Shown here: piece after piece, positions 31,143-43,679 of the stretch | How the letters are laid out: every line of letters begins with the position of its first letter | Position numbering within the stretch: position 1 is the stretch's first letter | Source: Candidatus Micrarchaeota archaeon | GTDB taxonomy: Archaea; Micrarchaeota; Micrarchaeia; Norongarragalinales; Norongarragalinaceae | NCBI GenBank assembly: GCA_016207165.1 | Contig: JACQQD010000001.1 | Location: 32,001-96,000 of the forward strand | Reading direction: 5' to 3' | DNA: 64,000 nt | The notes under the pieces: generated by a model | What the model saw: only the letters and a program-made list of their open reading frames with translations | Database searches by the model: none | Told to the model about the DNA's origin: nothing | Made by a program: the position numbers and the translations under genes

Positions 31143-31299
31143 TTGTTTACTTTGTGACTTATATTTAATCCTTTTTACCTCTAGAACTCCGATTCTTTTC
31201 TTCATTTTTAATTTGTATTCTTAGTATTTTTTGTTTACTTCATTTAACTGTATTTTGTAAACTATAAATTGTTTACTTTTTAGTATATTTAATTTACTT
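31143..31299 (+). repeat. TTGTTTACTT direct repeats
   Basis: Exact copies at 31143, 31231 and 31269; variants at 31152 and 31292. Confidence 0.65.
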
Positions 31300-32397
31300 T
31301 CTGTTCTTTGCTTCCGGTAAAAATGAACTCAATTTTTTGAACTTCAAGCCTAAATCTGCCTACTTTTTGCCCAAAACGCTTTTTCCGAGCCTTTATTCCT
31401 ACAAAAATTGGCGCAAACGCGTTTTTTTGCCGTATTCCCTGGTTTTTTTGTTTTAATCCAAAAAAATGCCTATTTTAATCCTTTTTTCTCGGTTTTGGGC
31501 CCTTCTCCAACGGCCTTTCTGATTTCCAGGCCTAATTTCAATTTTTTTGGTGAAAATCTGCCTAGTTTCGATGTTTTTGTGTGTTTTCAAGACATTTAGA
31601 CGGAGTTTTGATCAATTCTCCTCGGATTTTATGTGAAAAACTGCCCATGACCGGTTTTTCCCGCTTTTTTTGGGGTCGGCAACCTATTTTTCAGTATTTT
31701 GAGGTAAAACATGCCTACTCTTGGGTTTTTTTGGCTTGCCTTACGTCTTTTTTTGTCGAAAACTGGCTATTTGACGGGGGTTTTCCTTGTTTTTGAGGTA
31801 AGCCGGGTTGGTTGCGGGCTTGAAATGATTTTCTTTGGCCTCTTGGTCCGTTGGGATTCGGCTTTACTTCTTGTTCTGGGACTGTTTTTGTTTCCCAAGT
31901 AAAAAACGATTTATTTTTGCGTTTTTCTGCCTATGTTTTTTCCTGCCTATTTCGATTGACCCCCGTCCAAACCATCGACATTTATAAAGGCTTTATAAAT
32001 CTCTTTTGGGGTGGCGGGGGTGTGTGTCATGAGCTCTTTGGTTTGAATGTGCCAAATTCCAGGGTTTGGCGATGTTTGGGCGTTTTTGACGGGTTGCTGG
32101 CGGGTCTTGGGATGGCGGGCGTTCCGGTCCGTACAACTTTTGGCGGTATACCGCTGCTAGGGGTGGCGGGGGGTTTGGGGCGGTCACGTAGTAAATGGCG
32201 TTCGGGCATCCTTGGCGTTGGCCTGCGTCAAATTGTTTTCCGTTGGTTTTGTGTTCGTGGAATTAGGTTCGCATGTCTGCTCTTGCACGCGTTTCTGTGT
32301 TTTTTTTTCTCTTGGTTTTTCGGTAACTTCCGGGCTGTTTGTGTTTTTTGACGTGGTGGCTTTCTTTATTGAACGCGGGTGAATCATAGTATTCGGT

Positions 32398-35010
32398 ATG
32401 TCCTTTGATCCGTCGCTGTACCTTCACTCCGAGGTCCTGCATTTGGCAAAGCGGCGGGGGTTTGAGTCTTTTACTTTGGTTCAGCAGAAGGCGTTTCCGG
32501 AGGTGGCGGCGGGAAAAAACGTGTTGGTCATGGCGCCGACGGGTTTTGGAAAGACGGAGGCGGCCATGCTGCCGATTTTGTCCAAGTTGGTCCAGGAGAA
32601 AGGCGAGGGGGTTCAGTGTCTGTACATTACGCCGTTGCGCGCCTTGAATCGGGACATGTTGTCGCGCATGGAGTTTTTCTGCAAGATGCTGGGGTTGCGC
32701 TTGGGGGTGCGGCATGGGGACACGACGGCGTACGAGCGCGTCAAACAAAAAGAGCAGCCTCCCCACGTCTTGATCACTACGCCGGAGAGTCTGGGCGCGC
32801 TTTTGGTGGCCGGCATGCGGGACTCTTTGGTCAACGTCCGGTTTGTGGTGGTCGATGAAGTCCATGAATTGGCGTACTCCAAGCGGGGCGTGCAGTTGAA
32901 CTTGGCGTTGATTCGGCTGGGGTTGTTGGCCCCGTTTCAAGTCATTGGGTTGTCCGCCACGGTTTCGGCTCCAAGGGACGTGGCGGCGTTTTTGGGGGAA
33001 GGCGTGGGGGTGGTGGACGCGTCGGAGTTGCGGTCGCTGGATTTGTCGGTGGAGTACCCCAAAAAAGCGGTGGCCATGGAAGGGTTGAAACCGGATACGG
33101 CCGCCCGGTTGGTGCGGTTGGAGCAACTCATTGCGTCGCACGGCAAGACGTTGGTGTTCGTCAACACGCGGTTCATGGCTGAAGCGTTGGGGGCCTTGCT
33201 TCGGCCGCTTTTGGGCGAGGATTTTGCTGTTCACCACTCGTCGTTGTCCAAGGAGGCCCGTCTGGAATCCGAGGAGGCGTTCAAGAAAGGGCAACTCAAG
33301 GCCTTGGTCTGCACGTCTTCCCTTGAACTAGGCATGGACATTGGGGACGTGGACTTGGTGGTTCAAGTGGGTTCCCCCCGCCAGGTCACGCGGTTGGTTC
33401 AGCGGGTGGGGCGGTCGGGTCACAAGCATCATTTGACGCCCAAAGGCGTGGTTTTGGCGTTGGATGAGTTGGATGAATTGGAGGCGAAGGTGTTGGTGGA
33501 CTTGGCGCATGCGCGTTTGTTGGAGCCGCAGGCGCCGCGGTTGGGCTGTTTGGACGTGTTGGCGCACCAAATCTGTGGGCTGGCGCTTGAATTTGGCCGC
33601 ATCCGCTTGGAGGGCGTGGTCAAGAACTTTCGGACATCCCGCCTTTATGCCGGGTTGCTGGTTTCTGTTGCTAAAAAGGTGGTCGGTCAGCTGGTTTCGG
33701 AGGGGTTGCTGGCTTTTGACGGCGAGTTTTTGGAGCCGACCAAGCGGACGAAGTTTTACTATTACGAGAATTTGAGCACGATTTCGGATCTCAAGAAGGT
33801 GTTCGTCAAGAACGCGGAGTCCAACAAGAACGTGGCGCTTTTGGATGACGTGTTCGTGTCGAATTATTTGCAGGTTGGCGTCGCGTTCATCGCACGGGGC
33901 CGCGCGTGGCGGGTTTTAAGCATGGTGGACGATGAGTTGGTCGTCGAGCCGTCAAAAGACGTGTCGGCGGCCATTCCGGATTGGGTGGGGGAAGAAATTC
34001 CAGTGGCCCGGGGGGTGGCCGCCAAAGTCGCCGGCGCGCTTTCCGAGGGGTCTACGGCGTTTGGTAAAAAGCAGGCCGCGTTTTTCGTGCCGTCGGCTTC
34101 GGAGTGGGTGGTGGAATCCGAGGGCCCGGTGGTCGTGGTGCACTCTTTTTTGGGCCACCGCGGCAACGAAGCCCTTGCAAAACTGTTGGCGTTTTCTTTG
34201 GCGGCCAAAGGCAAATCGGTTCGGACGCGGGCGGGCGCGTACCACGTCTTGGTTGAATTTGGAAAGTCGGCGGACGCGGAGGCGGTGGCGGCCGTTCTTT
34301 TGGTTTGGCGCCAAAAAAGCGTGGCCGCGTTCCTCAAAACGCATTTGGTGGATTCGCCTTTGTTCGCGTCGCGGTTCGTGCACGTGGCCAAGCGGTTCGG
34401 TTTCCTGCAAAAAGACCGGGACTACCAAGCCGTTTCCGTCAAAAAGTTGGCGGCGGTGATGAAAGATTCCGTGATTGCCGAGGAAGTCTTCGCCGAATTG
34501 TTTTACGAGAAGCTGGACGTTTCAACGCTGGAATCGGCGTTGTCTTCGTTTCGCGTTTCGGTTCGGCCGTCGGGTTTTTCGCCTTTGGCCCGGCACGCCG
34601 TGGCGTTGGGTGGTTTCAGCGAACTGATTACGGCGGCGGAGCCGACGGAGAAGGTGGTGGCCGCGTTTGCCGAGGAATTGCGGTCTAAAAAGATTCAATT
34701 GCATTGCGGGTACTGCAACCAGCGCTTCACGAAATCCTTGGGCTTTTTGGAGGAGGCCCAATGCCTGTTTTGCGGGTCGCCTCGGATTTTTCCGGAGACC
34801 TATTCGGCGAAAAAAGACCAGCGCGTGGTCATGGATTTGGTGGCGGCGTACGGAAAAAACGCGTTGGTTGCGTTGAGTGCGTATGGCGTTGGGCCGGAGG
34901 CGGCCAAGCGCATTCTTTCACGGCTGCACAAGTCGGAGGACGACTTGTTTTACGACTTGCTTCAAGCCCAGAAGGATTTCATTCGGACGAAGAAGTTCTG
35001 GAAGGTCTAG
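32398..35010 (+). CDS. lhr: Lhr-family SF2 helicase
   Basis: APTGFGKT, ITPLRAL, TTPESL, DEVH, LSAT, QRVGRSGH, LDVLAHQI, C-terminal CxxC pairs. Confidence 0.92.
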   Translation: MSFDPSLYLHSEVLHLAKRRGFESFTLVQQKAFPEVAAGKNVLVMAPTGFGKTEAAMLPILSKLVQEKGEGVQCLYITPLRALNRDMLSRMEFFCKMLGLRLGVRHGDTTAYERVKQKEQPPHVLITTPESLGALLVAGMRDSLVNVRFVVVDEVHELAYSKRGVQLNLALIRLGLLAPFQVIGLSATVSAPRDVAAFLGEGVGVVDASELRSLDLSVEYPKKAVAMEGLKPDTAARLVRLEQLIASHGKTLVFVNTRFMAEALGALLRPLLGEDFAVHHSSLSKEARLESEEAFKKGQLKALVCTSSLELGMDIGDVDLVVQVGSPRQVTRLVQRVGRSGHKHHLTPKGVVLALDELDELEAKVLVDLAHARLLEPQAPRLGCLDVLAHQICGLALEFGRIRLEGVVKNFRTSRLYAGLLVSVAKKVVGQLVSEGLLAFDGEFLEPTKRTKFYYYENLSTISDLKKVFVKNAESNKNVALLDDVFVSNYLQVGVAFIARGRAWRVLSMVDDELVVEPSKDVSAAIPDWVGEEIPVARGVAAKVAGALSEGSTAFGKKQAAFFVPSASEWVVESEGPVVVVHSFLGHRGNEALAKLLAFSLAAKGKSVRTRAGAYHVLVEFGKSADAEAVAAVLLVWRQKSVAAFLKTHLVDSPLFASRFVHVAKRFGFLQKDRDYQAVSVKKLAAVMKDSVIAEEVFAELFYEKLDVSTLESALSSFRVSVRPSGFSPLARHAVALGGFSELITAAEPTEKVVAAFAEELRSKKIQLHCGYCNQRFTKSLGFLEEAQCLFCGSPRIFPETYSAKKDQRVVMDLVAAYGKNALVALSAYGVGPEAAKRILSRLHKSEDDLFYDLLQAQKDFIRTKKFWKV

Positions 35011-35269
35011 CTTTCCTTGTAAAATGCACGGCGCGCCAGACAGTGGTGTTGGGTGCGCCAAACCGCATGCGGTGCGCGAGTGAGATTCCCTCGCGTTGCC
35101 GTTCTTTGATTACTCGGTCAATCCATATGGGTAGCGAGGCTTCCATGAAGCCGATTTTTCTGCCGGTAAGTCTCGCATACGGAATGTAGACGCCGTGGCC
35201 TTTGACTTGGGCGTAAATCTTGTTTTCTAAAAGAATTTTTCGGAGGGCGTTCGCCGCGTCTTCGGGCAT
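34979..35269 (-). CDS. Hypothetical protein
   Basis: ORF convergent on lhr. Confidence 0.45.
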   Translation of the reverse strand: MPEDAANALRKILLENKIYAQVKGHGVYIPYARLTGRKIGFMEASLPIWIDRVIKERQREGISLAHRMRFGAPNTTVWRAVHFTRKARPSRTSSSE

Positions 35270-35333
35270 GTGGGTTTTGTTTTGCGGCGCGGCATTTATG
35301 GGTTTTCGTTTGGTTTAACCGTGCGGTTTTGTT

Positions 35334-35762
35334 TTACTTGCGCGTTTGCTGCATGCGTCGGTTGTGGACCAAGAGCGCGATTTGGGCTTCGATGTGAGGG
35401 TTGCGGCCGCCTTGCCGGCGGAGGCTGGCCACAGCGTCTTGAAATTCTTCATCCGTATCGGCTCTGGCCGCGTCCAGAAAGTGGCTGGCGTTGAGGTTGG
35501 ACAAGTTGGCGGCATTGGCGGTTCGACCGGCTTGCGTGTTTCCAAGCCCTTGTCGCCGCAATAGGTTCAACAGTTCTTGGGGGCTTCGTGCTCGTCGGAC
35601 TGCGTTGGAGGGAAGCCGCCACGCCGAGTGGTTGGCGGAGGGGCGGGTCGTCGAACGGGTGGGTGGCTGGCTCATGCGCGGGGCTTGAAGAGTGGGTCGC
35701 GTATTTCGTGCGGCGGCGGAATGGTGCGTGGGCGGGCGCCGGGCACTGGTTTTAACGGCCAT
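35334..35762 (-). CDS. Hypothetical Arg-rich protein
   Basis: ORF in the minus-strand run below the E2 gene. Confidence 0.5.
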   Translation of the reverse strand: MAVKTSARRPPTHHSAAARNTRPTLQAPRMSQPPTRSTTRPSANHSAWRLPSNAVRRARSPQELLNLLRRQGLGNTQAGRTANAANLSNLNASHFLDAARADTDEEFQDAVASLRRQGGRNPHIEAQIALLVHNRRMQQTRK

Positions 35763-35785
35763 GGTTGGCTTTTTTCTGGCCGGCT

Positions 35786-35911
35786 TTATTTGGTTTTGCT
35801 TTGGTTGGGTGCGGGATGCTTTTCCAGGAAGTCGTAGTCGTCTTCCGTCGGCGGCTTTTTTTCTTCCAAGGCGGGTTCCGTGACGTGCACGATGCGGGGT
35901 TTGCCGTTCAT
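35786..35911 (-). CDS. 41-aa micro-protein MNGKPRIVHVTEPALEEKKPPTEDDYDFLEKHPAPNQSKTK
   Basis: Hand translation; TGATG coupling with the upstream stop; shares KPRIV motif with Ub-system proteins. Confidence 0.55.
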   Translation of the reverse strand: MNGKPRIVHVTEPALEEKKPPTEDDYDFLEKHPAPNQSKTK

Positions 35912-36327
35912 CAGTTGTCGGACACCTTTCCAGGCTTGAATTCAGTGGGTTTGGGTTTGCTTTTGGGCGTGCTTGAATACGTCCCCGCGTTTTGCCTCGT
36001 GATTCTCACCAAACCCTTGGCTCGCAGAAGTTCCAGGATTTCGTTGGATTCGTGGAGGGCCAGGGGTTGGTGGAGTTGAATGTATTGGCGTCGGGTGTTG
36101 GGTTCGTCGTACTCCTCGCCCACAACGACGAGTTGGGTTTCCGTTTGGAGGAGGGTCAATTTCTCGTTGATGCCTTCAACGCCGCCCTTGAAGGGGTGGA
36201 GGGTCACCGGAATTTTTACTTGGAGGGCTCCGGACACGGATTGAGTGGCGTGGGCTTGGTTCCAGTGGATTTGTTGAATGTCGCCGTAGCGGTGTAGGTT
36301 CTCGATTTCTCGGATTAGGTTTTTCAC
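35911..36327 (-). CDS. Hypothetical protein in the Ubl-E2 operon
   Basis: GTGA overlap with the E2 stop. Confidence 0.6.
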   Translation of the reverse strand: MKNLIREIENLHRYGDIQQIHWNQAHATQSVSGALQVKIPVTLHPFKGGVEGINEKLTLLQTETQLVVVGEEYDEPNTRRQYIQLHQPLALHESNEILELLRAKGLVRITRQNAGTYSSTPKSKPKPTEFKPGKVSDN

Positions 36328-36788
36328 AGTCCGACCACCCTCGGCCCTTTGGGTTTGTGTTGCGGCAAGTCTTGGTGTTCCAGGTAGTACCTCGCCGCCT
36401 CTTCGTTCAGGGGGCTTTGGGGGTTGGGGTTCTTGAGCAATTGGATGAGGCCGTTTACGACGCTTACGAGGTTCTGGCCTTCACTCCACTCGTTGACGAG
36501 TTGGATGCACACTACGCCCACGCCTGGGTGGATGTTGGGGTGGAAAATGGGGGTCAGCCAGAACGCCATGAGTCCGCCGGGGTAGGGGTAGTCGCGGTTG
36601 AGTTCAATGCGGACGGAGTGCTGGCTTCGTGGCACGATGGAACCGTTTTGCTGGGCGAGGCCGGGGCCTTGGATGGAGACGGTGTACGTGGTCAAGTCAG
36701 GGGTGACGTCGAATCGGATGCCGGCGGCTCTCATTTCCGCGCACTCGCTTTCCAGGCGTCGCTTCCAGATGGCTTCGGGCAGTTGCAT
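36324..36788 (-). CDS. Ubiquitin-conjugating enzyme E2 (UBC fold)
   Basis: KRRL..E, DYPY, TPIFHPNI, catalytic Cys in GVVCIQL, W, NPNPQSPLNEEAA. Confidence 0.95.
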   Translation of the reverse strand: MQLPEAIWKRRLESECAEMRAAGIRFDVTPDLTTYTVSIQGPGLAQQNGSIVPRSQHSVRIELNRDYPYPGGLMAFWLTPIFHPNIHPGVGVVCIQLVNEWSEGQNLVSVVNGLIQLLKNPNPQSPLNEEAARYYLEHQDLPQHKPKGPRVVGL

Positions 36789-36795
36789 GCGTTTT

Positions 36796-37287
36796 TCACG
36801 TGGGTTCGACGTTAATGTTTTCCGTGTATCTTTTTAGTTTTTCTGCTTGCCGCAGCCACGTTTTTCGGGTGGGCCGGGCGTGGATTCGGAAATTCACGAC
36901 GGCATTTTCAGGAACGCGCAGGCCGGCGTCTTGTCCCCAGGCGGGCAGGGTGTCTTCAATGCCGATTCCGGTGACTTGGACGCGATGGGTGCCTCCGAGG
37001 TGGCGTTGGAGGCGTTGCTCCAAGTGGCGGCGGATGGCCAGCACGACGTCGGCTTCCTGAGGGGTCGGCATCCAATCTTGTTCTTTGGACGGCGTCCAGG
37101 TGGATGGATTTGAGAGTACCGCGTTTCGGTACGCGTCCTGAATTTTTTTTGGGACTTGTCCCGTCCATCGGGCGGTGGCACGGATGGTGACGTTGAATTC
37201 GTCGCCTTTGGGTACGGCGTCCACGGAAAGAATGGTTGTTTCAGTCAATGGCTTGAACAACAAGAGGCGTTCCAAGGCGCGCAGCAT
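36796..37287 (-). CDS. Hypothetical protein between Ubl and E2
   Basis: Tightly packed ORF (gaps of 7-10 nt). Confidence 0.6.
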   Translation of the reverse strand: MLRALERLLLFKPLTETTILSVDAVPKGDEFNVTIRATARWTGQVPKKIQDAYRNAVLSNPSTWTPSKEQDWMPTPQEADVVLAIRRHLEQRLQRHLGGTHRVQVTGIGIEDTLPAWGQDAGLRVPENAVVNFRIHARPTRKTWLRQAEKLKRYTENINVEPT

Positions 37288-37297
37288 GGTGTGGGGT

Positions 37298-37540
37298 TTA
37301 CCCGCCGGTGGGGTCCGGCATCAGCAAAAGCTGGTCGTTTTCCTTGAGTCCCGCTTCTTGGACGGTGACTTCCGGGCCCAGGATCTTGTGGTCGGCTGTG
37401 GCCAACACGAAGCGGTCTTTGAGTTTGAGGCTCTCGGAAAGCACGTCCAAAATCGAGGAAACGGTAAACGCGGGTTCGACGGCAACCACGATTTCCTTTC
37501 CGGACGTCGTGTGCATGATGGTCACGTTGAATTCACTCAT
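37298..37540 (-). CDS. Ubiquitin-like modifier (beta-grasp), C-terminal GG
   Basis: 80 aa; FNVTIMHTTSGKEIVVAVEP..TV...TVQEAGLKENDQLLL..PTGG; GAGGTG RBS. Confidence 0.9.
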   Translation of the reverse strand: MSEFNVTIMHTTSGKEIVVAVEPAFTVSSILDVLSESLKLKDRFVLATADHKILGPEVTVQEAGLKENDQLLLMPDPTGG

Positions 37541-37653
37541 GAAGGATTGCACCTCTTTAGCGGTTTTTCTTTTCACTCTTGACTCTTAAATGCGTGTTGG
37601 TCGGCCTCTGGCGCGAAACCTTGATTAACGCCTGCTGGCAAACGGTTCGTATC

Positions 37654-38427
37654 ATGGACAAACCCAAGATCGTGTCGGTGTCCGGCGCGGATTCAGACCA
37701 AACACAGCGGGACGCGTTGGGGGTGCCCCCGTTGCCTGGCGGCGAACCGCAGCCAAAAAGGTCGTCTCCGGAAACCCGACTCGTGGCCCCCCCAAACCTG
37801 CAACGCGGGCAGACGAATCAATCAAGCCTTCAACCCAAGCAAACGGTTCTTCAACCCGCATTTGAATCCGAGTCCGAAATTCCTCCGGAACGAATGACGC
37901 CGGAATCGCCGCTTGTTTCACAACCCGTTTCCAGAACGCAGACGGAATCCGAAGTTTCAATGCCGCGTCCTGTCGCGGAGCCGTCACCATCGAAACCGGA
38001 AAACCCGGAGCAATCCACGCCGGGTGCCACTTCCAAACCGCCGGACCCGCTTGCTGTGGAGCCGGAGCAACCCGTGGTTCAAGTCCGGCCCGTTTTGTCC
38101 GACCCCGTTTCGGCGCCGCCGTGGGTGGCGCGGAACCAGCCGCGTCCGAAAGTGTTTATGCGTCCCGAGTTTGACGACCGCGAGGACGAGGCGTTGGCCC
38201 GCGACTTGTTGTCTGATTCAAAGCCCCGCATCGTGGCCCGCCGGGACGTGGCCCAGGAATACCGTGAACAGGCTTCCCGTGACATTCTGCCACCGTCCCC
38301 GCCTCCGCATCCGTTGACCATGGACGAGCAGCGGGCGCACGCCAAGGGGCTGGCGCAGAAAATCCACGAGGGAAAACAGTCGGAAGGCTTTTTCTCGAAA
38401 CTCAAACGCAGGCTTGGGTGGCCGTAG
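37654..38427 (+). CDS. Pro/Ser/Glu-rich disordered protein with C-terminal amphipathic helix
   Basis: Low complexity; ends GFFSKLKRRLGWP; overlaps the JAB start. Confidence 0.7.
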   Translation: MDKPKIVSVSGADSDQTQRDALGVPPLPGGEPQPKRSSPETRLVAPPNLQRGQTNQSSLQPKQTVLQPAFESESEIPPERMTPESPLVSQPVSRTQTESEVSMPRPVAEPSPSKPENPEQSTPGATSKPPDPLAVEPEQPVVQVRPVLSDPVSAPPWVARNQPRPKVFMRPEFDDREDEALARDLLSDSKPRIVARRDVAQEYREQASRDILPPSPPPHPLTMDEQRAHAKGLAQKIHEGKQSEGFFSKLKRRLGWP

Positions 38428-38870
38428 CCTTGTACGACGTGTACTTGTCTGCGGACGTGGTGGAAAAAGCCCAAACGCATTTCCGCACCGCCGCGTCCCG
38501 GGGCAAGGAAGCCATGGGCTTGTTGTTGGGGTCCGCCTTCGTCTGGAACGGCAACCCGTATGCCGTGGCGGAACGGTACGTGACGGCGTCCAACGACGCG
38601 ACGGCGGTCAGCGTTCGCTTTTCTCGCGAGGCGTTTTCCGATCTTTCCAAAAAACTCAACGGCTTTCGCGTGGTGGGCTGGACGCACAGCCATCCCGACT
38701 ACGGGTGTTTTCTGTCGTCCACCGACGTGGCGACGCAGGAATCGTTTTTTTCGGAGGACTTCCATTTTGCGTTCGTCGTGGACCCGGTGCGCGGCGAAAA
38801 GAAATGCTTCAAAGTGCGAAACGGTCAAAGCGTGCCCGTGGGTTTCGCCGTGATTCGGAGGAAGCGCTAA
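38418..38870 (+). CDS. JAB1/MPN+ (Rpn11-like) metallo-isopeptidase
   Basis: EAMGLLLG and VVGWTHSHPDYGCFLSSTDVATQ JAMM motif; VVDP. Confidence 0.95.
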   Translation: MAVALYDVYLSADVVEKAQTHFRTAASRGKEAMGLLLGSAFVWNGNPYAVAERYVTASNDATAVSVRFSREAFSDLSKKLNGFRVVGWTHSHPDYGCFLSSTDVATQESFFSEDFHFAFVVDPVRGEKKCFKVRNGQSVPVGFAVIRRKR

Positions 38871-39658
38871 TGGAGGAACGGCAGGACGGTGTGTTGGCCT
38901 CCGATGGCGCGGTTCCCAAGCAAGCGCCCAAAACCAGGAAAAAGCGGAAAGCCGCCCAGCGCTTCAAGGTCACGCGGTTTGACAAGGATTTAGTCAAACT
39001 CATTCACGCTGGCACGACGAACCTCAAAGACGCATGCCAACAATTGGGCGTGGACTACGACTCGGCGCGAAGCCGTGCGCTGGCCATGGCGGAAAAAAAG
39101 TGGCTGGTCACCGACCCCTCGCATGCCGACGTGTTCCGCTTGGGTTTGGAGGGCTACAACCAGTTTGCCTCCGTCGTCAAACCCAAAGCCAAGTCATTGG
39201 CGGCCAAGGCGTCGGGGCGGTCGCCGCCCAAGGCGGCGGTCGCCGATTCGGAACCCGTGCCTCCACTGGAAGACGTGGATTCGCTGCCTTCGGCGTCCAA
39301 TGCCGTGGACTTGGCGGACTTGCTCCGCCGGGGCGCGCCCAAGTTGACGTCGGGGGAGCCGACGGATTACGGGTTGCCTGCGCCGTCACCTTCGCTGCCG
39401 GTGCCGCCCGTGACGCAGAAAAACGCCGCGGAAAGCACGGTGTGCGAACTGTGTCGGGCGCCGTTTAAGTTGTCCGTCAAGAATCTGGAGGGCGCCAAGT
39501 ACGCGCACTGTTTCTGCGGGGCCGCGTACCACAAGGACTGCTATCACGCGTTGGTGGAAGGCGGGGGCCGGTGCGCGCGGTGCGGAAGAAAGCTTTCACT
39601 CATCCTGGATCGGCACGCGGATGAGGCCCTCAAAAGCGTCAAGGATTTGTTTGACTAG
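38870..39658 (+). CDS. Winged-helix plus C4HC3 RING-like protein, putative E3 ligase
   Basis: C-x2-C-x18-C-x-C-x4-H-x2-C-x10-C-x2-C; N-terminal wHTH-like segment; TAATG coupling to JAB. Confidence 0.75.
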   Translation: MEERQDGVLASDGAVPKQAPKTRKKRKAAQRFKVTRFDKDLVKLIHAGTTNLKDACQQLGVDYDSARSRALAMAEKKWLVTDPSHADVFRLGLEGYNQFASVVKPKAKSLAAKASGRSPPKAAVADSEPVPPLEDVDSLPSASNAVDLADLLRRGAPKLTSGEPTDYGLPAPSPSLPVPPVTQKNAAESTVCELCRAPFKLSVKNLEGAKYAHCFCGAAYHKDCYHALVEGGGRCARCGRKLSLILDRHADEALKSVKDLFD

Positions 39659-39660
39659 GC

Positions 39661-40044
39661 CTATTCTTTTGCTTGAATGGTTACTTTGTGAGTCAGAAAC
39701 GTCAGAAACTCAAGGCCCGAATGGCCGTGGTCGTCGGTATGCAACGACGCAATTACTTGCTTTTTTTTGTTTATGATTTCGACTCGTTTCCGCAGGTATT
39801 CTAGGACTTCGTCCGCCGTTGCAGGGTTTTTTCTACCGCGCCGGGAAGTGATGCTCGCGTCTTCTCCCTCTACCTTGATCTCGGTTCGAACCAGGTTGTT
39901 TCGCCGGAGGTGGGCGAGCCTCGGTAACCCGGAAGACCGGCGCAGGGTTTTTTCTCCCGGGTGACGAATGTATGCGGTCAACGAGTACGTTATTCCGGCA
40001 CGATTTAATCGTCCTATCAGGCTCTTCGTCGCTGCGTACACCAT
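39661..40044 (-). CDS. Hypothetical basic protein downstream of E1
   Basis: ORF trimmed to ATG 40044 to avoid overlap with E1. Confidence 0.5.
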   Translation of the reverse strand: MVYAATKSLIGRLNRAGITYSLTAYIRHPGEKTLRRSSGLPRLAHLRRNNLVRTEIKVEGEDASITSRRGRKNPATADEVLEYLRKRVEIINKKKQVIASLHTDDHGHSGLEFLTFLTHKVTIQAKE

Positions 40045-40079
40045 GATGACTAATTTTCCAGGGTCTTTAACTGCGTTTC

Positions 40080-40850
40080 TTAGGGATGCACCGGGCACGT
40101 TTTTCTTTTGGGAACCTCGAAGGTTTGCGTTTGCTGGGTTAAGCCGTTGTAGTGCACGTACGTTCCCGCGCCAGAGTTTTGTTGCAACAAGTTGGCCAGC
40201 CAGGCGTTGACTTGCATGGCGGACACCACGGACGTGGTCGTCGGAAGGGCGGGGGTTTTGGGGTCCAGGTAATCCAGGACTTCCCCGACGCAGCTGTACT
40301 TTTTCCACAGCAGTTTGTAGTCGCGGTTGTTCATGCCGCACTCCAGGCATGAAGACGGTTTGGATACGACCTGCAGCTTTCCAAAGAATCCGTTGGTGCC
40401 GCCATCAAACAGGGGCGCGTAATGATAGGTTTGGGCGTTTGTGTGAAGGCGCGCGCCCAGGTTGTCCAAACAACCAAAAACGGCGTCGTGCGTTTGGAAC
40501 GCGGTTTCCGGAATCGTTTCCACGGCCCGGTGGTCCGGCGTGATGGCGGTGTCAGGAAACGTTTTGGCGGCTTTTTCGACGATGACGTCGGCCTTGAATC
40601 GGTGCGTTTGCGCGTCGCTTGAATCAAAGAAGACGCAGCGGTTCAAGTTGGCCGGAACCACGGTGTCAAAGTCAACGACGGTGATCTTTCCGACGCCCAA
40701 TTGAAGCAAGAGCTTGACGGTTTCGTTGCCCAAGGCCCCTGCTCCGATGACCAAGACGTTTTGCTTCCTGATTTTTTCCTGGTCCCATTGCGCAACGCGT
40801 TTTTGGCGGTCGAAGCGGTCCGCGTCCACAACCTTAATTTCAGGCGCCAT
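40080..40850 (-). CDS. Ubiquitin-activating enzyme E1-like (ThiF/Uba family)
   Basis: DRFDRQ..W.Q, GAGALGNE, DFDTV..NLNR, CLDN..AR, DGGT.GF.G, CLEC, YSC putative catalytic Cys. Confidence 0.92.
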   Translation of the reverse strand: MAPEIKVVDADRFDRQKRVAQWDQEKIRKQNVLVIGAGALGNETVKLLLQLGVGKITVVDFDTVVPANLNRCVFFDSSDAQTHRFKADVIVEKAAKTFPDTAITPDHRAVETIPETAFQTHDAVFGCLDNLGARLHTNAQTYHYAPLFDGGTNGFFGKLQVVSKPSSCLECGMNNRDYKLLWKKYSCVGEVLDYLDPKTPALPTTTSVVSAMQVNAWLANLLQQNSGAGTYVHYNGLTQQTQTFEVPKRKTCPVHP

Positions 40851-40863
40851 GCACGCCTTGTAC

Positions 40864-41643
40864 GTGCCAACGTTTTTCTATTCGACGGACGACGCGGCGG
40901 GCGTGAACGCGGCAAACGCGCTGCGCCACGCCCGACTAAACCGGCCCTTGAAAATCAACGGGTTTGCGGCGTGGCGGTTTGACGGGTTTGATTTGGTGGA
41001 AACGGGTTCGCGGACGGTTCAATTCCAGGATGCGGATTTGTTTGAAACGGATTTGGTCGTGTTCTTGTCTCGTCATGCGTCCGCCTCCAAGACTCCGTGC
41101 TTTACGTGTCACGTGACCGGCAATTTTGGGCCCGCCAATCCGGATATGGGCGGGCGGGATGGAACGCTTTCCCGTGCGTCCGCGTTTTGGTTGAAGCGAT
41201 TTTATCTGGCGCTTCAGGAACGCGCGGGCCACGTCTTTTTGGAGGCCACGCACCACGGCCCAACCCTTCAAACGCCGAGTTTGTTCGTGGAAATTGGTTC
41301 GGAAGGGGCCGAATGGAAGAAACCGGAGAACGGCGTGGCGTTGGCCGAATCGGTGCTGGCCGCGTTGTCTCGAAAGGATGAAGGCAAGGCGGCTTTGGGG
41401 TTGGGTGGCGCGCATTACTGTTCCGCTTTCGCTCCGCTGATGCAGGAGGGCTGGGCCTTGTCGCATGTCGCTTCAAAGCATTCCGTGGGTTTTGTGACGA
41501 AGGACCTCGTCAAGCAGGCGGTGGAAAAGACGGTGGAGCCGGTGGAACATGTTTTCCTGGACTTCAAGGGTTTGCCCGCGGAAAAGAAAAAAGAGATTCC
41601 GGCTTGGTGTGAACAACTGGGTTTGGCGTGGGAGCGGGTTTAG
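40864..41643 (+). CDS. dtdA: D-aminoacyl-tRNA deacylase (DTD2)
   Basis: YS.DD.AG.N, FLSRH.S, HVTGN, EATHHGP, FVEIGS...W, GG.HY; GTG start inferred. Confidence 0.92.
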   Translation: MPTFFYSTDDAAGVNAANALRHARLNRPLKINGFAAWRFDGFDLVETGSRTVQFQDADLFETDLVVFLSRHASASKTPCFTCHVTGNFGPANPDMGGRDGTLSRASAFWLKRFYLALQERAGHVFLEATHHGPTLQTPSLFVEIGSEGAEWKKPENGVALAESVLAALSRKDEGKAALGLGGAHYCSAFAPLMQEGWALSHVASKHSVGFVTKDLVKQAVEKTVEPVEHVFLDFKGLPAEKKKEIPAWCEQLGLAWERV

Positions 41644-42491
41644 ATTCGCGGCCGGTATGGGTGCTTGGGGGTTGGTTTTTTGCCTGCGGCGTGGATTCGT
41701 CGCCACGCGACTTTGACGCGGGCCGTGTTGGGAAGCCGGTAGCTTGGCCGGACGTTGAATCGGGTGGGGCGTTCGGCGTTGGTCAGCTCCGCCAGGGGCA
41801 TGTGTTGGTTGATGTCGCTGGCGGTGGCGTTCCAATTGGCTTGCAGGGATTCGTCGGTGTGGTGTTGTTGGTTCAAGTGCTCTCGCCAAAGACGGATGAG
41901 TTCTTCGTCGCTGTAGCGGTCCATGGCCTTGAGTTGTTTTGGCTCGGGAGACGGCATGGGTGGGCCAGTCAGGTGGCGGGTTTGGTGCTGAAAACCGTTG
42001 AAAAGCAAGTTTCTTTTGATGTGGTTCATTTCCACGCGTCGCGTCAACTCCAGGACTTCGCCGCGGGTGAACGGCCGGAAGCCGTGTCGGGCGTAGAACG
42101 ATCGGAGTTCGTCGCTAGAAAGCCTGCGGTCGCCGATGGCTTGCGGATGCAGGTAGAGTGGCACGTTGGATTTCTTGGCCAATTGCACGACGAGACGGAG
42201 CAGTTCGGAGCCGATTCCTTGTCCGCGGTACGCCGGCGCCACGGAGAGCTGGCTTAACTCGACCCATTCGGAACCCGTCTTGGCGAGCATGTGGCCTTCT
42301 CTAGTCCGGAAGCCCGCGTACGCGACCAAATTGCCCGTTTGCAATTCCCGTACTTGGATGACGGGTTCGCCTTGAAAGTCGCCAGACCAGTGCAATAGTT
42401 CTTCCACCACGACTTTCTTCCCGTCCACGGTGGCTTCGGCGATTTTCCGGGTGCGGGCCACGCGGCCCGTCTCCGTGGCTTTTTCTTCCAT
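41640..42491 (-). CDS. GNAT acetyltransferase with C-terminal extension
   Basis: LSVAPAYRGQGIGSELL and FYARHGF. Confidence 0.8.
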   Translation of the reverse strand: MEEKATETGRVARTRKIAEATVDGKKVVVEELLHWSGDFQGEPVIQVRELQTGNLVAYAGFRTREGHMLAKTGSEWVELSQLSVAPAYRGQGIGSELLRLVVQLAKKSNVPLYLHPQAIGDRRLSSDELRSFYARHGFRPFTRGEVLELTRRVEMNHIKRNLLFNGFQHQTRHLTGPPMPSPEPKQLKAMDRYSDEELIRLWREHLNQQHHTDESLQANWNATASDINQHMPLAELTNAERPTRFNVRPSYRLPNTARVKVAWRRIHAAGKKPTPKHPYRPRI

Positions 42492-42563
42492 GAAGGTGAC
42501 TTATGGGGTTTGATTTCAAAAAACTTTTCATGCGTCAAAGTTCGGTTGCTTTTTCCCCTTGCT

Positions 42564-43679
42564 TTAGTACTGAGAAAGTTTCCTCTGGGTTAAAATCCGG
42601 CTTTTCTTGAGGTATTGGCTCCAAGGCTGTTTCAAGCGTTTTTTCAGTTCTGTTACGGCGTCGTTGAAGTTGGAGGTTTTGAACGGCGGCCGGGTGAAGG
42701 CGTGCCGCACGTTTTCTCGAACCTCCCAAACGCCTACGGGCACGACGTATTTTGGTGAGACTTCTCGGAACACGATGGCGCGCGCCTGCCGCTTCATCTT
42801 GAAAAGCGCTTCCGCGACGCCGAAGCGTCCGGCGTAGTAGCCGCCGCCCTCGCCTTCCGCGTAACGGGTTCGGCCTTCAAACGCCTCGTATTCGTGTGCG
42901 ATGTTGGACTGGTTTTCAAAGGATTCGAATTGCTCGAACTCCCACGCGCCGGGAAGCAAGAGGATTTCGAAGTGGTTGTACAAATAGTTGTTCGAATAAA
43001 TTCGGTACTCGCCGGTTTCGGGAAACCCTCGGATTTGTTCCAGCCACTCTTTGGCAATCATGTCGTCCGTGGCGGTGATGCTCCACTTGGTTGGAACTAG
43101 TTTTCGCTTTTGGCCCAAAATCCCGGCGGACAACAGTTTTTGGACGTAGTGGTAGTCAAACCGCGGCAGCAGTTCGGAAAGCGCATCTTTGACCTTGAGT
43201 TTTTCCTGGATTAACGCGTCGACTTTCTTGGGCACTTTCGGGTTTTCCGTCAGCCGCATGCGCTCCAAAACCCCGGAGGGCCCCATGGGTTGGACGTGTT
43301 CTGAAAACGAGAGGGAAAACCGAGGCGTTTTTTCGAATTGCATTTCCACGTCCAACGGCTTTTGCGCGGCCGCCAGCCAGAACGCTTCTTCCTCGGTGCG
43401 GTGGACGTGTTGGACGGTGAAGCCGCGGGCAAGCAGTGCGCGGTGGCGCAAGAGTTCCGGGTAATTCAGCCCGTACAAGTCCGTGGGCGCATCCAGTACG
43501 CCTTCATCCAGTCCCACCAGGGGCCCGGCGCGAACGGACGGATACCCGTATTCGCCGACGAACACGTTGGGCGGCGAGGGGCCAAACGTGGTCTTGGATA
43601 GCCTCGGCAAAACCTGGTTTTCCAGGTCCCGCATCCACGTCTTGCCCCGGATCCACTCGTACACGGAATCGCGCTGCAT
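42564..43679 (-). CDS. nreA: NreA DNA repair protein
   Basis: SPPNVFVG..GYP.V..GP, LVPTKWSITATDD, GGYYA, PVGVWEVRE, C-terminal PIP box QRKLSQY. Confidence 0.88.
   Translation of the reverse strand: MQRDSVYEWIRGKTWMRDLENQVLPRLSKTTFGPSPPNVFVGEYGYPSVRAGPLVGLDEGVLDAPTDLYGLNYPELLRHRALLARGFTVQHVHRTEEEAFWLAAAQKPLDVEMQFEKTPRFSLSFSEHVQPMGPSGVLERMRLTENPKVPKKVDALIQEKLKVKDALSELLPRFDYHYVQKLLSAGILGQKRKLVPTKWSITATDDMIAKEWLEQIRGFPETGEYRIYSNNYLYNHFEILLLPGAWEFEQFESFENQSNIAHEYEAFEGRTRYAEGEGGGYYAGRFGVAEALFKMKRQARAIVFREVSPKYVVPVGVWEVRENVRHAFTRPPFKTSNFNDAVTELKKRLKQPWSQYLKKSRILTQRKLSQY

What the first reader, a model, noticed from the sequence alone, without database searches (positions are those of the whole stretch)
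35786..40850. Complete eukaryote-like ubiquitination cascade (Ubl, E1, E2, RING E3, JAB) in a DPANN-like archaeon
Seen within 5 kb: an 80-aa Ubl ending in GG with no pro-extension, a canonical UBC E2 (HPN...C...W...SPLN.EAA), an E1 (GAGALGNE, NLNR, CLEC, YSC) with no obvious C-terminal UFD, an Rpn11-like JAMM and a C4HC3 RING protein. They form three transcription units interleaved with unknown ORFs. Known: such cascades are characterised in Caldiarchaeum subterraneum and Asgard archaea, while most archaea use E2/E3-free SAMPylation; a separate MoeB/UbaA-type gene is at 10903. Inference: a distinct variant with extra dedicated components, located next to the putative origin and the Lhr helicase. 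I cannot confirm whether this lineage's version has been described.
Basis: partly seen in the sequence, partly recalled or inferred. Interest (0 to 1): 0.88.

Follow-up and report, generated by a model that had tools for sequence, protein, structure and literature searches.

The report
Ubiquitin-type tagging operon in Micrarchaeota
A tiny groundwater archaeon of the DPANN group carries a compact, eukaryote-like set of genes for tagging proteins with a ubiquitin-like protein, which is shared by almost its whole order and has two parts of its own that are not described in the papers I could search.

Summary
Window 35.9-40.9 kb encodes an 80-aa Ub/SUMO-fold Ubl ending in GG, a UBC E2, a 256-aa ThiF-only E1, an Rpn11-like JAMM protease and a 262-aa protein with a C4HC3 finger.

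By relatives' record titles the organism is a Micrarchaeota archaeon of the order Norongarragalinales. The E2 occurs in 46 of 48 other sampled genomes of that order and in 0 of 352 other genomes of the phylum. Of 57 loci, 41 hold all five genes in one fixed order.

- **The "RING".** It is a winged helix plus a divergent cross-brace finger. It misses every Pfam cut-off and forms a closed family (72 of 1.84 billion representatives). E2 binding got only weak model support.
- **The interleaved ORFs.** One is a conserved sixth gene ("X", upstream of JAB, 46 of 57 loci). X is disordered, shares a KPR[IV]V motif with the E2 C-terminus and has a basic-hydrophobic tail. u163 has one relative and u138 none, so they are not core parts.

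I read this as a working E1-E2-E3-DUB conjugation system: a new variant of the Caldiarchaeum/Asgard kind. No paper searched describes it in Micrarchaeota, but an unseen supplement of Hennell James 2017 may list such clusters. The origin claim is unverified.

The parts
37298..37540 (-). Ubl: 80 aa, beta-grasp, ends ...PDPTGG directly before the stop.
   Evidence: BLAST conservation starts at residue 13 of the 92-aa ORF, in 19 of 20 loci. In A2, 16 of 20 end exactly at GG; K15 and K41 are invariant. AF2 gave pLDDT 83.2. Foldseek top hits are SUMO1/2, ubiquitin and Caldiarchaeum Ub, TM 0.83-0.86, with 748 hits at E<=1e-3. The Pfam hit Rad60-SLD is below its cut-off (20.3 against 23.8 bits).
36796..37287 (-). 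u163: lineage-restricted gene inserted between Ubl and E2. Function unknown; not a core part.
   Evidence: Codon log-odds 0.215, the best of six frames. One homologue at the same position in L051 (E 2.6e-7), in 1 of 56 other loci. Only itself among 5.8 billion proteins by word search. Atlas score 0.80, which is noise level.
36324..36788 (-). E2: UBC fold, HPN...Cys94, C-terminal tail ...KGPRVVGL.
   Evidence: PF00179, E 6.7e-18. 255 PDB sequences at E<=1e-3, best UBE2H at 9e-13. Invariant H83, P84, N85, C94, W101, P68, Y69, P149, R150 and V152. The tail motif P[RK][IVL][IVL] lies within the last 9 residues in 53 of 57.
35911..36327 (-). u138: orphan ORF whose GTG overlaps the E2 stop (GTGA). 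Probably coding; not conserved.
   Evidence: Codon log-odds 0.399, within the range of known genes. No hit in 57 loci. Only itself in the 5.8-billion protein search. No Pfam or NCBIfam family.
37654..38427 (+). X: 257 aa, disordered, Pro/Ser/Glu-rich. N-terminal MDKPKIV, internal RDILP motif, C-terminal basic-hydrophobic tail GFFSKLKRRLGWP. It is the first gene of the X-JAB-E3 block.
   Evidence: An iterated HMM from its C-terminal 87 residues hits 46 of 57 loci at E<=1e-3; 40 of the 46 are the ORF just upstream of JAB. 36 of 46 carry the motif [KRG]P[RK][IVL][IVLF]; 42 of 46 have a tail with >=4 K/R and >=5 FLIVMW. No Pfam, PADLOC or Atlas relative. Composition: 16.7% Pro.
38418..38870 (+). 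Rpn11-like JAMM/MPN metalloprotease: a predicted deconjugase, and a processing enzyme where the Ubl has an extension.
   Evidence: PF01398, E 3e-14. E31, H90, H92, S100 and D103 are invariant in 19 of 19. The profile against PDB gives yeast Rpn11 2.2e-22, Caldiarchaeum Rpn11-like 6fjv 1.7e-19 and CSN5 3e-19. The NCBIfam desampylase model scores 24 bits against a cut-off of 130.
38870..39658 (+). E3-like protein, 262 aa: winged helix (about residues 35-105), disordered linker, C-terminal C4HC3 cross-brace finger (C192...C238) and a terminal helix.
   Evidence: The start overlaps the JAB stop. AF2 gave pLDDT 93-97 for residues 31-100 but 41-62 for the finger. Foldseek found MarR-type winged helices at E 6e-3 to 5e-2, none at <=1e-3. 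Pfam is sub-threshold only: C1_1 0.002, zf-RING_4 0.016, zf-RING_2 0.049. Profile A6 against PDB: 8 of 11 hits are RING E3s, best AMFR at 0.011. 72 of 1.84 billion representatives score E<=1e-10, then a gap to 1e-4. Complex with E2 plus 2 Zn: 0.56 against a best control of 0.01, 'weak support'.
40080..40850 (-). E1: 256 aa, a single ThiF/MoeB-size adenylation domain, no UFD and no inserted Cys domain.
   Evidence: PF00899, E 9.1e-42, residues 19-254. Invariant G36xG38ALGNE, N68LNRC, D129, C168xxC171, C187, C252xxH255 in 17 of 17. The profile against PDB gives UBA1/UBA6/UBA3/SAE2 at 3e-34 to 3e-31, ahead of MoeB 1.5e-25 and ThiF 4.9e-22. It is below every NCBIfam cut-off, e.g. UbaA 57.8 against 450.
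32398..35010 (+). Context only: Lhr-type helicase, a conserved neighbour.
   Evidence: DEAD, Helicase_C, DEAD_assoc and WH_Lhr domains. Next to the cluster in 11 of 20 loci.
40864..43679 (.). Context only: D-aminoacyl-tRNA deacylase (40864-41643 +), GNAT (41640-42491 -), NreA DNA-repair protein (42564-43679 -).
   Evidence: DTD is present in 14 of 20 loci and NreA in 11 of 20.

Best explanation
This is a chromosomal, vertically kept protein-conjugation system of the eukaryote-like kind in a Micrarchaeota (DPANN) archaeon of the order Norongarragalinales.

**Likely mechanism.** Sequence features are shown; chemistry is inferred.
1. The 80-aa Ub/SUMO-fold Ubl already ends in Gly-Gly.
2. It is adenylated by a MoeB-sized, presumably dimeric E1, which has a GxGxxG motif, an NLNR arginine, Asp129 and a Cys3His zinc site.
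3. It is then taken as a thioester on the invariant crossover-loop Cys187.
4. It passes to Cys94 of the UBC E2.
5. The 262-aa partner holds E2~Ubl with its C4HC3 cross-brace finger. Its winged helix, or other regions, choose the targets.
6. The Rpn11-like JAMM protease reverses the mark. In the few relatives with a short C-terminal extension it also matures the Ubl.

**The sixth gene.** X encodes a disordered protein. It carries the same short KPR[IV]V strand motif as the E2 C-terminus and ends in a basic-hydrophobic tail. I infer that it is an adaptor or a main substrate, possibly at the membrane.
For: **Components**
- Searches show the five components with intact catalytic motifs and a Ub/SUMO fold. 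See the part list for the figures.

**Conservation**
- PF00179 occurs in 46 of 48 other genomes of the order and in 0 of 352 other genomes of the phylum sample. The 2 misses are 78% and 76% complete.
- In 20 fetched loci: E2 20, Ubl 19, JAB 18, finger 18, E1 16.
- Of 57 loci, 41 hold all five, and gene order and strands are fixed. These 57 come largely from the same genomes as the 20.
- Three of 3 genomes with a lone E2 in reach have the Ubl elsewhere.
- Genes overlap (JAB/E3 TAATG, X/JAB, E2/u138), as in operons.

**Descent**
- The 41 Micrarchaeota E1s form one side of a branch, SH-aLRT 92, not starred.
- In the E2 tree the archaea split from the bacteria at 99*. The Asgard+Bathyarchaeota clade sits on a 1.5 substitutions/site stem.

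**E3 role**
- The invariant ligand pattern, plus invariant Leu between the first two Cys and Arg/Lys after the last pair.
- The best PDB profile hits are RING E3s.
- E2-finger model: 0.56 against a best control of 0.01, 'weak support'. The mark was reached by 58 of 80 solved complexes and 2 of 110 mismatches. At 0.60 or under it was reached by only 7 of those 80 and by both mismatches that passed. The runs agree in at least 92% of contacts and the partner pLDDT is at least 70. RING-E2 complexes are solved, so the pass may reflect likeness.
- E2 Pro68-Tyr69 are invariant. A PY pair at 67/68 was needed for E3-dependent activity in Caldiarchaeum (passage, PMC5654768). The two were compared by motif, not aligned.

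**Setting**
- The cluster sits on a 180-kb contig among housekeeping genes.
- 20S proteasome alpha and beta genes are present.
Against: - No biochemical or expression data exist. All four listed holder runs are DNA, from one study.
- The finger fails all Pfam RING cut-offs (best 18.4 bits against 26.5) and AF2 could not fold it (pLDDT 41-62). Its winged helix looks like a MarR-type DNA binder, so it could be a regulator.
- The E1 has neither a UFD nor a Cys domain, so how it recruits the E2 is unknown. Cys187 as the thioester site is inferred from position only.
- The complex score is in the band where passes are 'more often wrong than right' unless the pair was already likely.
- The E2 tree does not resolve Micrarchaeota as one clade: 2 changes, with 1 not excluded.
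Confidence: 0.75

Rival explanations
1. The 262-aa finger protein is not an E3. It is a DNA-binding regulator (winged helix plus zinc ribbon or zinc finger) of the operon or of other genes. The system then works as E1-E2 only, with the E2 choosing targets itself as Ubc9 does.
For: The N-terminal domain is a confidently modelled winged helix whose best structural matches are MarR-family repressors. No RING model reaches its threshold, and C1 and FYVE fingers score alike. The finger profile finds no RING protein at E<=1e-3 in PDB. It finds only 3 borderline proteins (E 1e-4 to 8e-4) outside its own closed set in 1.84 billion.
Against: The start codon overlaps the JAB stop, and the gene is kept in 47 of the 57 loci that hold the cluster or a part of it (41 with all five genes plus 6 with four). 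Eight of 11 weak PDB hits are RING E3s, with the ligands in register. Leu is invariant at the position of the E2-contacting Ile of RINGs (position recalled from the I30 passage in PMC5654768). The E2-finger model scored 0.56 against 0.01, weak support.
Confidence: 0.17
2. The cluster is an antiviral defence system like the bacterial Bil or related E1/E2/JAB operons. It would tag invader proteins rather than serve housekeeping.
For: Homologous parts exist in bacterial operons. The next E2 relatives after the archaea are Chloroflexota and Planctomycetota E1-E2-JAB-JAB clusters. Such bacterial operons are described as defence systems (passages, 10.1101/2023.09.26.559546). The E1 matches CBASS Cap2 'E1-E2' models over part of the adenylation domain (1.1e-14). 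Variable orphan genes (u163, u138) sit inside the operon.
Against: It is present in 46 of 48 other genomes of the order, at one syntenic place between Lhr and DTD/NreA, and absent from 352 of 352 other genomes of the phylum sample. That is the pattern of a core gene set, not of a mobile island. There is no PADLOC hit for E2, Ubl, finger or X; JAB scores only 4e-4. The Ubl is 64-85% identical across families, which is unusually constrained for a defence gene.
Confidence: 0.05
3. It is a sulfur-carrier or SAMP-type system (E1 plus beta-grasp protein, E2/E3-free). The E2-like and finger genes would be inactive passengers.
For: The E1 has MoeB/ThiF size and zinc site. MoeB scores 1.5e-25 in PDB and NCBIfam ThiF/MoeB models are its best named hits.
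Against: A separate MoeB/UbaA-type E1 exists at 10903-11784. The E1 profile scores eukaryotic UBA1/UBA3/SAE2 above MoeB. The Ubl model matches SUMO, ubiquitin and Caldiarchaeum Ub in the 50 best rows shown. The E2 catalytic HPN and Cys are invariant in 21 of 21. The JAB is of the Rpn11/CSN5 type, and the desampylase model scores 24 against 130 bits.
Confidence: 0.02
4. The locus is a binning or assembly artefact, or a recent transfer from an Asgard archaeon or a eukaryote.
For: These are metagenome-assembled genomes. The E2's nearest non-Micrarchaeota relatives are Asgard and Bathyarchaeota (32-37% identity).
Against: The cluster lies inside a 180,642-base contig with archaeal housekeeping genes. 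GC is 57-60%, like its surroundings. The same cluster occurs in 47 of 49 sampled genomes of the order, from many studies. A long stem separates it from the Asgard E2s. Genome contamination is estimated at 0.43%.
Confidence: 0.01

Closest known systems
Caldiarchaeum subterraneum ubiquitylation operon (Ub, E1-like, E2-like, small RING finger protein srfp, Rpn11-like). Reconstituted in vitro: PMC5654768 (passages and Methods section 21 read); PMC6043591 and PMC3082918 (abstracts in the listing only).
   Same: Same five functional classes, clustered on the chromosome. UBC E2 with HPN/Cys and a Pro-Tyr pair. Rpn11-type JAMM: the profile hits the Caldiarchaeum Rpn11-like chain 6fjv at 1.7e-19. The Ubl model superposes on Caldiarchaeum Ub at TM 0.83-0.85.
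   Different: - Caldiarchaeum Ub is a pro-form with nine extra residues that Rpn11 must remove (passage). Here 16 of 20 Ubls end at GG.
- The Caldiarchaeum E3 is a small RING-H2 protein (passage). Here it is a 262-aa winged helix plus C4HC3 finger that no RING model recognises.
- Here the E1 is a single 256-aa ThiF domain. A review describes a separate roughly 60-residue Cys domain in the Caldiarchaeum E1 (passage, PMC11354881).
- A sixth conserved gene, X, and a KPR[IV]V tail on the E2 are present here. I did not see either described.
Asgard archaeal ubiquitin clusters (Lokiarchaeota and others).
   Same: These are the nearest E2 relatives outside the order: Sigynarchaeum 37%, Promethearchaeota 32-34%. 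Loci L108 and L109 hold JAB-E1-E2 plus a Ubl, with a short E1 (ORF 301 aa). The E2s also end in a short hydrophobic strand.
   Different: The Asgard E2 tail has an acidic flank (...DDDILVID), where here it is basic (KPRVV). No homologue of the finger protein or of X lies within 8 kb of the Asgard E2s examined: 0 of 5 loci at E<=1e-3. Asgard clusters are often linked to ESCRT genes (passage, 10.1101/2020.10.19.343400). No Snf7 gene was found in this 90%-complete genome.
Haloarchaeal SAMP/UbaA sampylation with a JAMM desampylase.
   Same: A beta-grasp modifier with C-terminal GG, a ThiF-type E1 of about 250-270 aa without a UFD, and a JAMM protease.
   Different: Sampylation needs no E2 or E3 (established knowledge; stated in PMC11354881). 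Here an intact UBC E2 is conserved. The E1 scores 57.8 against the UbaA cut-off of 450, and the JAB 24 against the desampylase cut-off of 130. The genome has a second, more MoeB/UbaA-like E1.
Bacterial Bil and related E1/E2/JAB defence operons.
   Same: E1, E2, JAB and a Ubl in one operon. The bacterial E1-E2-JAB-JAB clusters are the next relatives in the E2 search.
   Different: They are separated from the archaeal E2s by a 99* branch. Bacterial systems are sparse and defence-linked (passages). This one is order-wide and syntenic. No PADLOC model matches the E2, Ubl, finger or X.

Membership tests
Archaeal eukaryote-like ubiquitylation operon (Caldiarchaeum/Asgard kind) | Beta-grasp modifier of the ubiquitin/SUMO type with an exposed or exposable C-terminal Gly-Gly | tested here: met
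   AF2 pLDDT 83.2. Foldseek top hits are SUMO, ubiquitin and Caldiarchaeum Ub at TM 0.83-0.86. PDPTGG is invariant and 16 of 20 end at GG.
Archaeal eukaryote-like ubiquitylation operon (Caldiarchaeum/Asgard kind) | UBC-fold E2 with HPN motif and catalytic Cys | tested here: met
   PF00179 at 65.1 bits against a cut-off of 27. H83, P84, N85 and C94 are invariant in 21 of 21.
Archaeal eukaryote-like ubiquitylation operon (Caldiarchaeum/Asgard kind) | E1 with a ThiF adenylation domain closer to eukaryotic E1s than to MoeB/ThiF, and a catalytic Cys | tested here: met
   PDB profile: UBA1 2.9e-34 against MoeB 1.5e-25. Cys187 is invariant in the crossover region. Its thioester role is inferred, not tested.
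Archaeal eukaryote-like ubiquitylation operon (Caldiarchaeum/Asgard kind) | RING-type E3 that binds the E2 | tested here: inconclusive
   Eight ligands in cross-brace spacing are invariant. All RING models are below cut-off. PDB profile best is 0.011. AF2 finger pLDDT is 41-62. Complex score 0.56 against control 0.01, weak support.
Archaeal eukaryote-like ubiquitylation operon (Caldiarchaeum/Asgard kind) | Rpn11/CSN5-type JAMM protease | tested here: met
   PF01398 at 53.3 bits against 22.5. JAMM residues are invariant. Rpn11 2.2e-22.
Archaeal eukaryote-like ubiquitylation operon (Caldiarchaeum/Asgard kind) | Genes clustered, operon-like | tested here: met
   All within 5 kb, with overlapping starts and stops. 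The same order occurs in 41 of 57 loci.
Archaeal eukaryote-like ubiquitylation operon (Caldiarchaeum/Asgard kind) | ATP-dependent thioester relay and isopeptide formation | not testable with these tools
   Needs proteins at the bench.
Pfam RING families (zf-RING_2 PF13639, zf-RING_4 PF14570, Prok-RING_1 PF14446) | Score at or above the curated gathering threshold | tested here: not met
   Scores of 14.4, 15.5 and 12.4 bits against 27.3, 27 and 29.1. It is therefore not filed as a member, only as RING-like.
SAMP/UbaA sampylation | UbaA-type E1 (NCBIfam NF047750) and conjugation without an E2 | tested here: not met
   57.8 bits against a cut-off of 450. An intact E2 is conserved order-wide.
Known anti-phage Ubl systems (PADLOC: CBASS Cap2/Cap3 and others) | Matches to the system's protein models for all core parts | tested here: not met
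   Only partial E1 matches (1.1e-14 over about 100 residues) and weak JAB matches (4e-4). There are 0 families for E2, Ubl, finger and X.

The most novel reading that the evidence does not exclude
Norongarragalinales was placed as sister to all other Micrarchaeia in PMC8561730. The order has kept, since its origin, a minimal self-contained ubiquitylation machine built partly from parts found nowhere else.

- **E3.** It joins a winged helix to a cross-brace finger so diverged that it forms a closed family.
- **X.** This disordered partner, like the E2 tail, carries a charge-reversed SIM-like strand (KPR[IV]V). The strand would dock on the strongly acidic Ubl, or serve as the acceptor-lysine consensus. 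X's basic-hydrophobic tail would put it on the membrane.

This would mean that E1-E2-E3 tagging with short-motif readers exists in DPANN cells of about 1 Mb. It would also mean that the eukaryote-like cascade is older or more widely exchanged in Archaea than the Asgard/TACK picture suggests.
Probability: 0.3. Interest if true: 0.8.

Novelty: new variant of a known kind. Interest (0 to 1): 0.62.

Why it matters
**A wider range for the cascade.** Eukaryote-like ubiquitylation in archaea has been characterised in Caldiarchaeum and discussed mostly for Asgard and TACK lineages. Here it is a near-universal, syntenic trait of a whole DPANN order with genomes of 0.7-1.6 Mb. A lineage under strong genome reduction still pays for six genes, so the system probably does something central.

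**A small system for mechanism.** It is one of the smallest conceivable E1-E2-E3-DUB sets: an E1 of 256 aa without UFD or Cys domain, and a Ubl made mature. It is therefore attractive for asking how an E1 without a UFD hands over to an E2.

**Testable leads.**
- The shared KPR[IV]V motif, with an acidic counterpart on Asgard E2 tails, is a lead to SIM-like reading of archaeal Ubls.
- The neighbours (Lhr, NreA, RecJ) and the winged helix of the E3 suggest DNA-repair or chromatin targets. This is inference only.

**Evolution.** The restriction to the earliest-branching Micrarchaeia order bears on whether the cascade is ancestral in Archaea or was moved between phyla.

Tried and rejected
**Checks that gave nothing**
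- Sigma-70 promoter and intrinsic-terminator scan of 35000-41200: 0 and 14 sites against 1.4 and 13.9 expected. These models do not cover archaeal promoters.
- Rfam on the whole window: only 4 tRNAs, none in the locus.
- Repeats in the AT-rich 29.3-32.4 kb stretch: only two-copy 14-31 nt matches, no ORB-like family. The origin stays unverified.
- Expression: no RNA holder listed. The 4 DNA runs are groundwater metagenomes of one study, and one may be the source.
- ESM Atlas for u163 (best 0.80) and X (best 0.77): noise level.
- Word-based protein search for u138 and u163: only themselves. Its sensitivity is limited, since it missed the L051 relative of u163 found by phmmer.
- ORF 39661-40350(-): its BLAST hits lie in the part that overlaps E1 in another frame. 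The non-overlapping part, 39661-40041, has no family and no relative, and its codon score of 0.066 is ambiguous. u142 and u96 have low codon scores (0.029 and -0.024) and no relatives.
- Genome-wide scan for other carriers of the KPR[IV]V motif at a terminus: among ORFs of at least 80 aa, 3 carry it at the C-terminus and only the E2 looks like a gene. Of 22 N-terminal matches, X is the only clear one; another looks like a ribosomal protein by eye.
- Helical hydrophobic moment of the X tails: median 1.65 against a background median of 1.31 and 90th percentile of 1.89. This is only mildly raised, so 'amphipathic membrane helix' stays an inference. Its likeness to the MinD membrane-targeting tail is recalled, not tested.
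- Charge test of the tail-Ubl idea: Micrarchaeota Ubl cores have net charge -5 to -9 in 20 of 20. The two Loki Ubls look about neutral by eye. With two lineages only, this is a lead, not a test.
- The E2 tree did not resolve Micrarchaeota monophyly. L112 and L114 are very long branches. No Caldiarchaeum or eukaryotic sequences could be added, because none was returned as a usable id.

**Literature**
- Searches found no paper that links Micrarchaeota or Norongarragalin* with a ubiquitin cascade.
- 'ubiquitin' occurs 0 times in the main text of PMC8561730 and of PMC12892359.
- PMC7203096 holds both words by the listing, but its 'ubiquitin' passages lie beyond the part of the text that is held.
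- Supplementary Fig. 1 and Table 2 of PMC5654768 survey all NCBI archaeal assemblies of Feb 2017 (clusters I-III). They could not be seen and may include Micrarchaeota MAGs.

Full report
**1. What is there**

The region holds eight plausible genes in three blocks by orientation:
- (-) Ubl 37298-37540, u163 36796-37287, E2 36324-36788, u138 35911-36327
- (+) X 37654-38427, JAB 38418-38870, finger protein 38870-39658
- (-) E1 40080-40850

Pfam gives UQ_con for the E2 (6.7e-18), JAB for the protease (3e-14) and ThiF for the E1 (9.1e-42, residues 19-254 of 256). For the Ubl it gives only a sub-threshold Rad60-SLD hit (20.3 bits against 23.8). It gives nothing for u138, X or the long finger ORF. 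NCBIfam names none of them above cut-off. The E1 scores 57.8 against 450 for the SAMP E1 UbaA, and the JAB 24 against 130 for desampylase.

Two gene models needed correction:
- The Ubl is 80 aa from Met13, because conservation in relatives begins there.
- The finger protein is 262 aa from an ATG that overlaps the JAB stop. It is not the 414-aa ORF.

**2. Whose genome**

The window is G000:C1:32001-96000 in a 1.27-Mb assembly of 12 contigs, 90.2% complete and 0.43% contaminated, with one E2 gene.

A scan of one genome per species with the E2 alignment returned 262 confirmed relatives. Of the 80 kept:
- 56 are Candidatus Micrarchaeota, Micrarchaeia or Norongarragalinales MAGs, or untitled 'archaeon' MAGs that carry the same cluster.
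- 7 are other archaea: Sigynarchaeum, three Promethearchaeota, a Bathyarchaeota and two Thermoplasmatota.
- 17 are bacteria, mostly Chloroflexota.

This is the type genome of Ca. Norongarragalina meridionalis. Its order was described as sister to all other Micrarchaeia (passages of PMC8561730). So 'DPANN-like' is right.

**3. Distribution**

In an even sample of 401 genomes of the phylum, PF00179 was found in 47, including G000.
- All 47 are in the window's order: 46 of 48 others. The two misses are 78% and 76% complete.
- None of the 352 genomes of other families has it. The sample as a whole includes 188 genomes that are at least 90% complete.

I fetched about 18 kb around the E2 of 20 of these genomes, across ten families. 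BLAST with the window's proteins gave E2 20, Ubl 19, JAB 18, finger 18, E1 16, Lhr 11, DTD 14 and NreA 11 of 20, in one gene order. Most of the misses are at contig ends.

Profile searches of the 56 named loci plus the window gave all five genes in 41 of 57. Another 6 lack only the E1, and 6 have the E2 alone. These loci come largely from the same genomes as the first 20. In 3 of 3 genomes with a lone E2, the Ubl lies elsewhere; in one of them about 11 kb away on the same contig.

**4. The parts**

- **Ubl.** It is 64-85% identical across the order. PDPTGG is invariant, 16 of 20 end at GG and 4 have extensions. The AF2 model (pLDDT 83.2) matches SUMO1/2, ubiquitin, ISG15 and Caldiarchaeum Ub at TM 0.81-0.86. 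There are 748 hits at E<=1e-3.
- **E2.** HPN, Cys94, Trp101 and a Pro68-Tyr69 pair are invariant. The best PDB hits are eukaryotic E2s.
- **E1.** Invariant are the nucleotide loop, NLNR, Asp129, a CxxC...CxxH set and Cys187 in the crossover region. Its profile scores UBA1, UBA6, UBA3 and SAE2 (3e-34 to 3e-31) above MoeB (1.5e-25) and ThiF. It has eukaryote-like adenylation chemistry in a MoeB-sized body.
- **JAB.** The full JAMM set is invariant. The profile hits Rpn11, PSMD14, the Caldiarchaeum Rpn11-like protein and CSN5 at 2e-22 to 2e-16, then AMSH at 6e-9.

**5. The finger protein**

AF2 models residues 31-100 at pLDDT 93-97 as a winged helix. The rest is poor, with the finger at 41-62. 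Foldseek finds MarR-type winged helices at E 6e-3 and worse, none at <=1e-3.

The finger has nine invariant Cys/His in 40 of 40 sequences. The spacing reads as C4HC3.
- Pfam hits are all below threshold: C1_1 0.002, zf-RING_4 0.016, zf-RING_2 0.049.
- A 40-sequence profile against PDB gives 11 hits at E<=10, and 8 of them are RING E3s: AMFR, RCHY1, CNOT4, EL5 and RNF24. The best is 0.011. The CGxxxHxxC...CxxC part is in register with RING-H2.
- Against 1.84 billion representatives the profile finds 75 proteins. Of these, 72 score <=5.6e-17; most are 200-420 aa and all but a few fragments carry the domain at the very C-terminus. After them there is a gap to 1e-4.
- A word-based search found 55 relatives, none with a Pfam domain. 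Twelve carry a name: 10 are 'hypothetical protein' of Candidatus Micrarchaeota or Micrarchaeia, and 2 have no organism.

So this is a closed, unnamed family. A model of E2 + finger + 2 Zn scored 0.56 in three runs, against 0.01 for the best of three controls, and was rated 'weak support'. The full caveats are in the For line. I call the protein E3-like, not a RING family member.

**6. The unknown ORFs**

- **X.** By plain BLAST, X matched one locus. But nearly every locus has an ORF on the JAB strand just upstream. An iterated HMM from the window's X C-terminus reached 46 of 57 loci. Forty are that ORF, and 5 of the other 6 are full-length X-like proteins that my ORF picker had passed over. 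Shared features are an N-terminal M-x-KP[RK][IV]V, often a second copy followed by DYSxL, a D[IV]xP motif and a basic-hydrophobic C-terminal tail.
- **The shared motif.** The same KPR[IV]V closes the E2 in 53 of 57. Six loci carry a mini-X after the E2. In this genome no other credible gene carries the motif at a terminus.
- **Asgard and Bathyarchaeota E2s.** They end instead in an acidic run plus a hydrophobic strand (...DDDILVID). This is the pattern I recall for SUMO-interacting motifs. The Micrarchaeota Ubl is strongly acidic, net -5 to -9 in 20 of 20. This suggests, without showing, that the motif is a charge-reversed strand that docks on the Ubl.
- **An alternative.** The Lys of the motif may be the acceptor site. 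This is prompted by the auto-ubiquitylation of a C-terminal Lys of the Caldiarchaeum E2 (passage).
- **u163 and u138.** Both have gene-like codon use, 0.215 and 0.399 against a training mean of 0.371 and sd of 0.18. But u163 has one relative, in L051 at the same position, and u138 has none. They are local additions, not dedicated parts.

**7. Descent and context**

- **E1 tree.** It has 56 rows. The 41 Micrarchaeota rows form one side of a branch, SH-aLRT 92.
- **E2 tree.** It has 81 rows. The bacteria split off at 99*. The Asgard+Bathyarchaeota clade (99*) sits on a stem of 1.5 inside an unresolved Micrarchaeota comb.
- **Reading.** This fits long vertical descent within the order. It cannot tell a gain at the base of the order from loss in the other Micrarchaeia.
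- **Neighbours.** They are Lhr, DTD2, a GNAT, NreA and an archaeal RecJ.
- **Elsewhere in the genome.** It has 20S proteasome alpha and beta, a second MoeB/UbaA-like E1 and no detectable Snf7.
- **Defence systems.** PADLOC does not place the cluster in a known defence system.

**8. Novelty**

The kind of system is known. The Caldiarchaeum operon has been reconstituted (PMC5654768). Archaeal toolkits were surveyed by Grau-Bove et al. (PMC4327156, passages), who name Aigarchaeota, Crenarchaeota and Euryarchaeota.

I found no paper that ties it to Micrarchaeota. There are two blind spots: the supplements of PMC5654768, and the unheld part of PMC7203096.

The new items are:
- the order-wide presence in a DPANN lineage
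- the closed E3-like family
- protein X
- the shared motif

Noticed in passing
window 29541-31851: A stretch of about 2.3 kb without ORFs of 120 aa or more, at 39% GC against 55-60% around it. It lies exactly where the GC skew changes sign. No Rfam family and no clear repeat family were found.
   Followed up: partly
window 42564-43679 (-), 45569-46975 (-), 32398-35010 (+): DNA-repair and replication genes flank the cluster: NreA (Nre_N 7e-70), an archaeal RecJ (391 bits against a cut-off of 360) and Lhr. Lhr and NreA each keep this position in 11 of 20 related loci. This is a possible hint at targets, or mere synteny.
   Followed up: partly
L104, L105, L106, L108, L109 (E2 C-termini): Asgard and Bathyarchaeota E2s end in an acidic run followed by I/L/V-I/L/V-x-I-D (e.g. 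...DDDILVID). This looks like a SUMO-interacting motif at the extreme C-terminus. I did not find it mentioned in the passages I read.
   Followed up: no
L031 8437-8574, L036 8842-9003, L046 8774-8944, L047 9328-9495, L048 8757-8960, L050 8172-8399: Six related loci carry a 45-75-aa 'mini-X' ORF just downstream of the E2. It has the same MxKPRV start, an EERAPP motif and, in four of the six, a basic-hydrophobic tail. The window has u138 at that place instead.
   Followed up: partly
window 10903-11784 (+): A second ThiF-family E1, closer to MoeB/UbaA models (MoeB 108 bits, UbaA 95.9 bits, both below cut-off). A partner SAMP/ThiS-like gene was not looked for.
   Followed up: no
window 28450-29310 (-): A 286-aa ORF with an N-terminal MazE/AbrB-type antitoxin domain (1.9e-7), next to the AT-rich stretch.
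   Followed up: no
L113, L115-L130 (bacterial loci): Chloroflexota and Planctomycetota loci hold E1-E2-JAB-JAB clusters with two tandem JAB genes of about 400 aa each. They are probably one of the bacterial Ubl operon families. They were not examined further.
   Followed up: no
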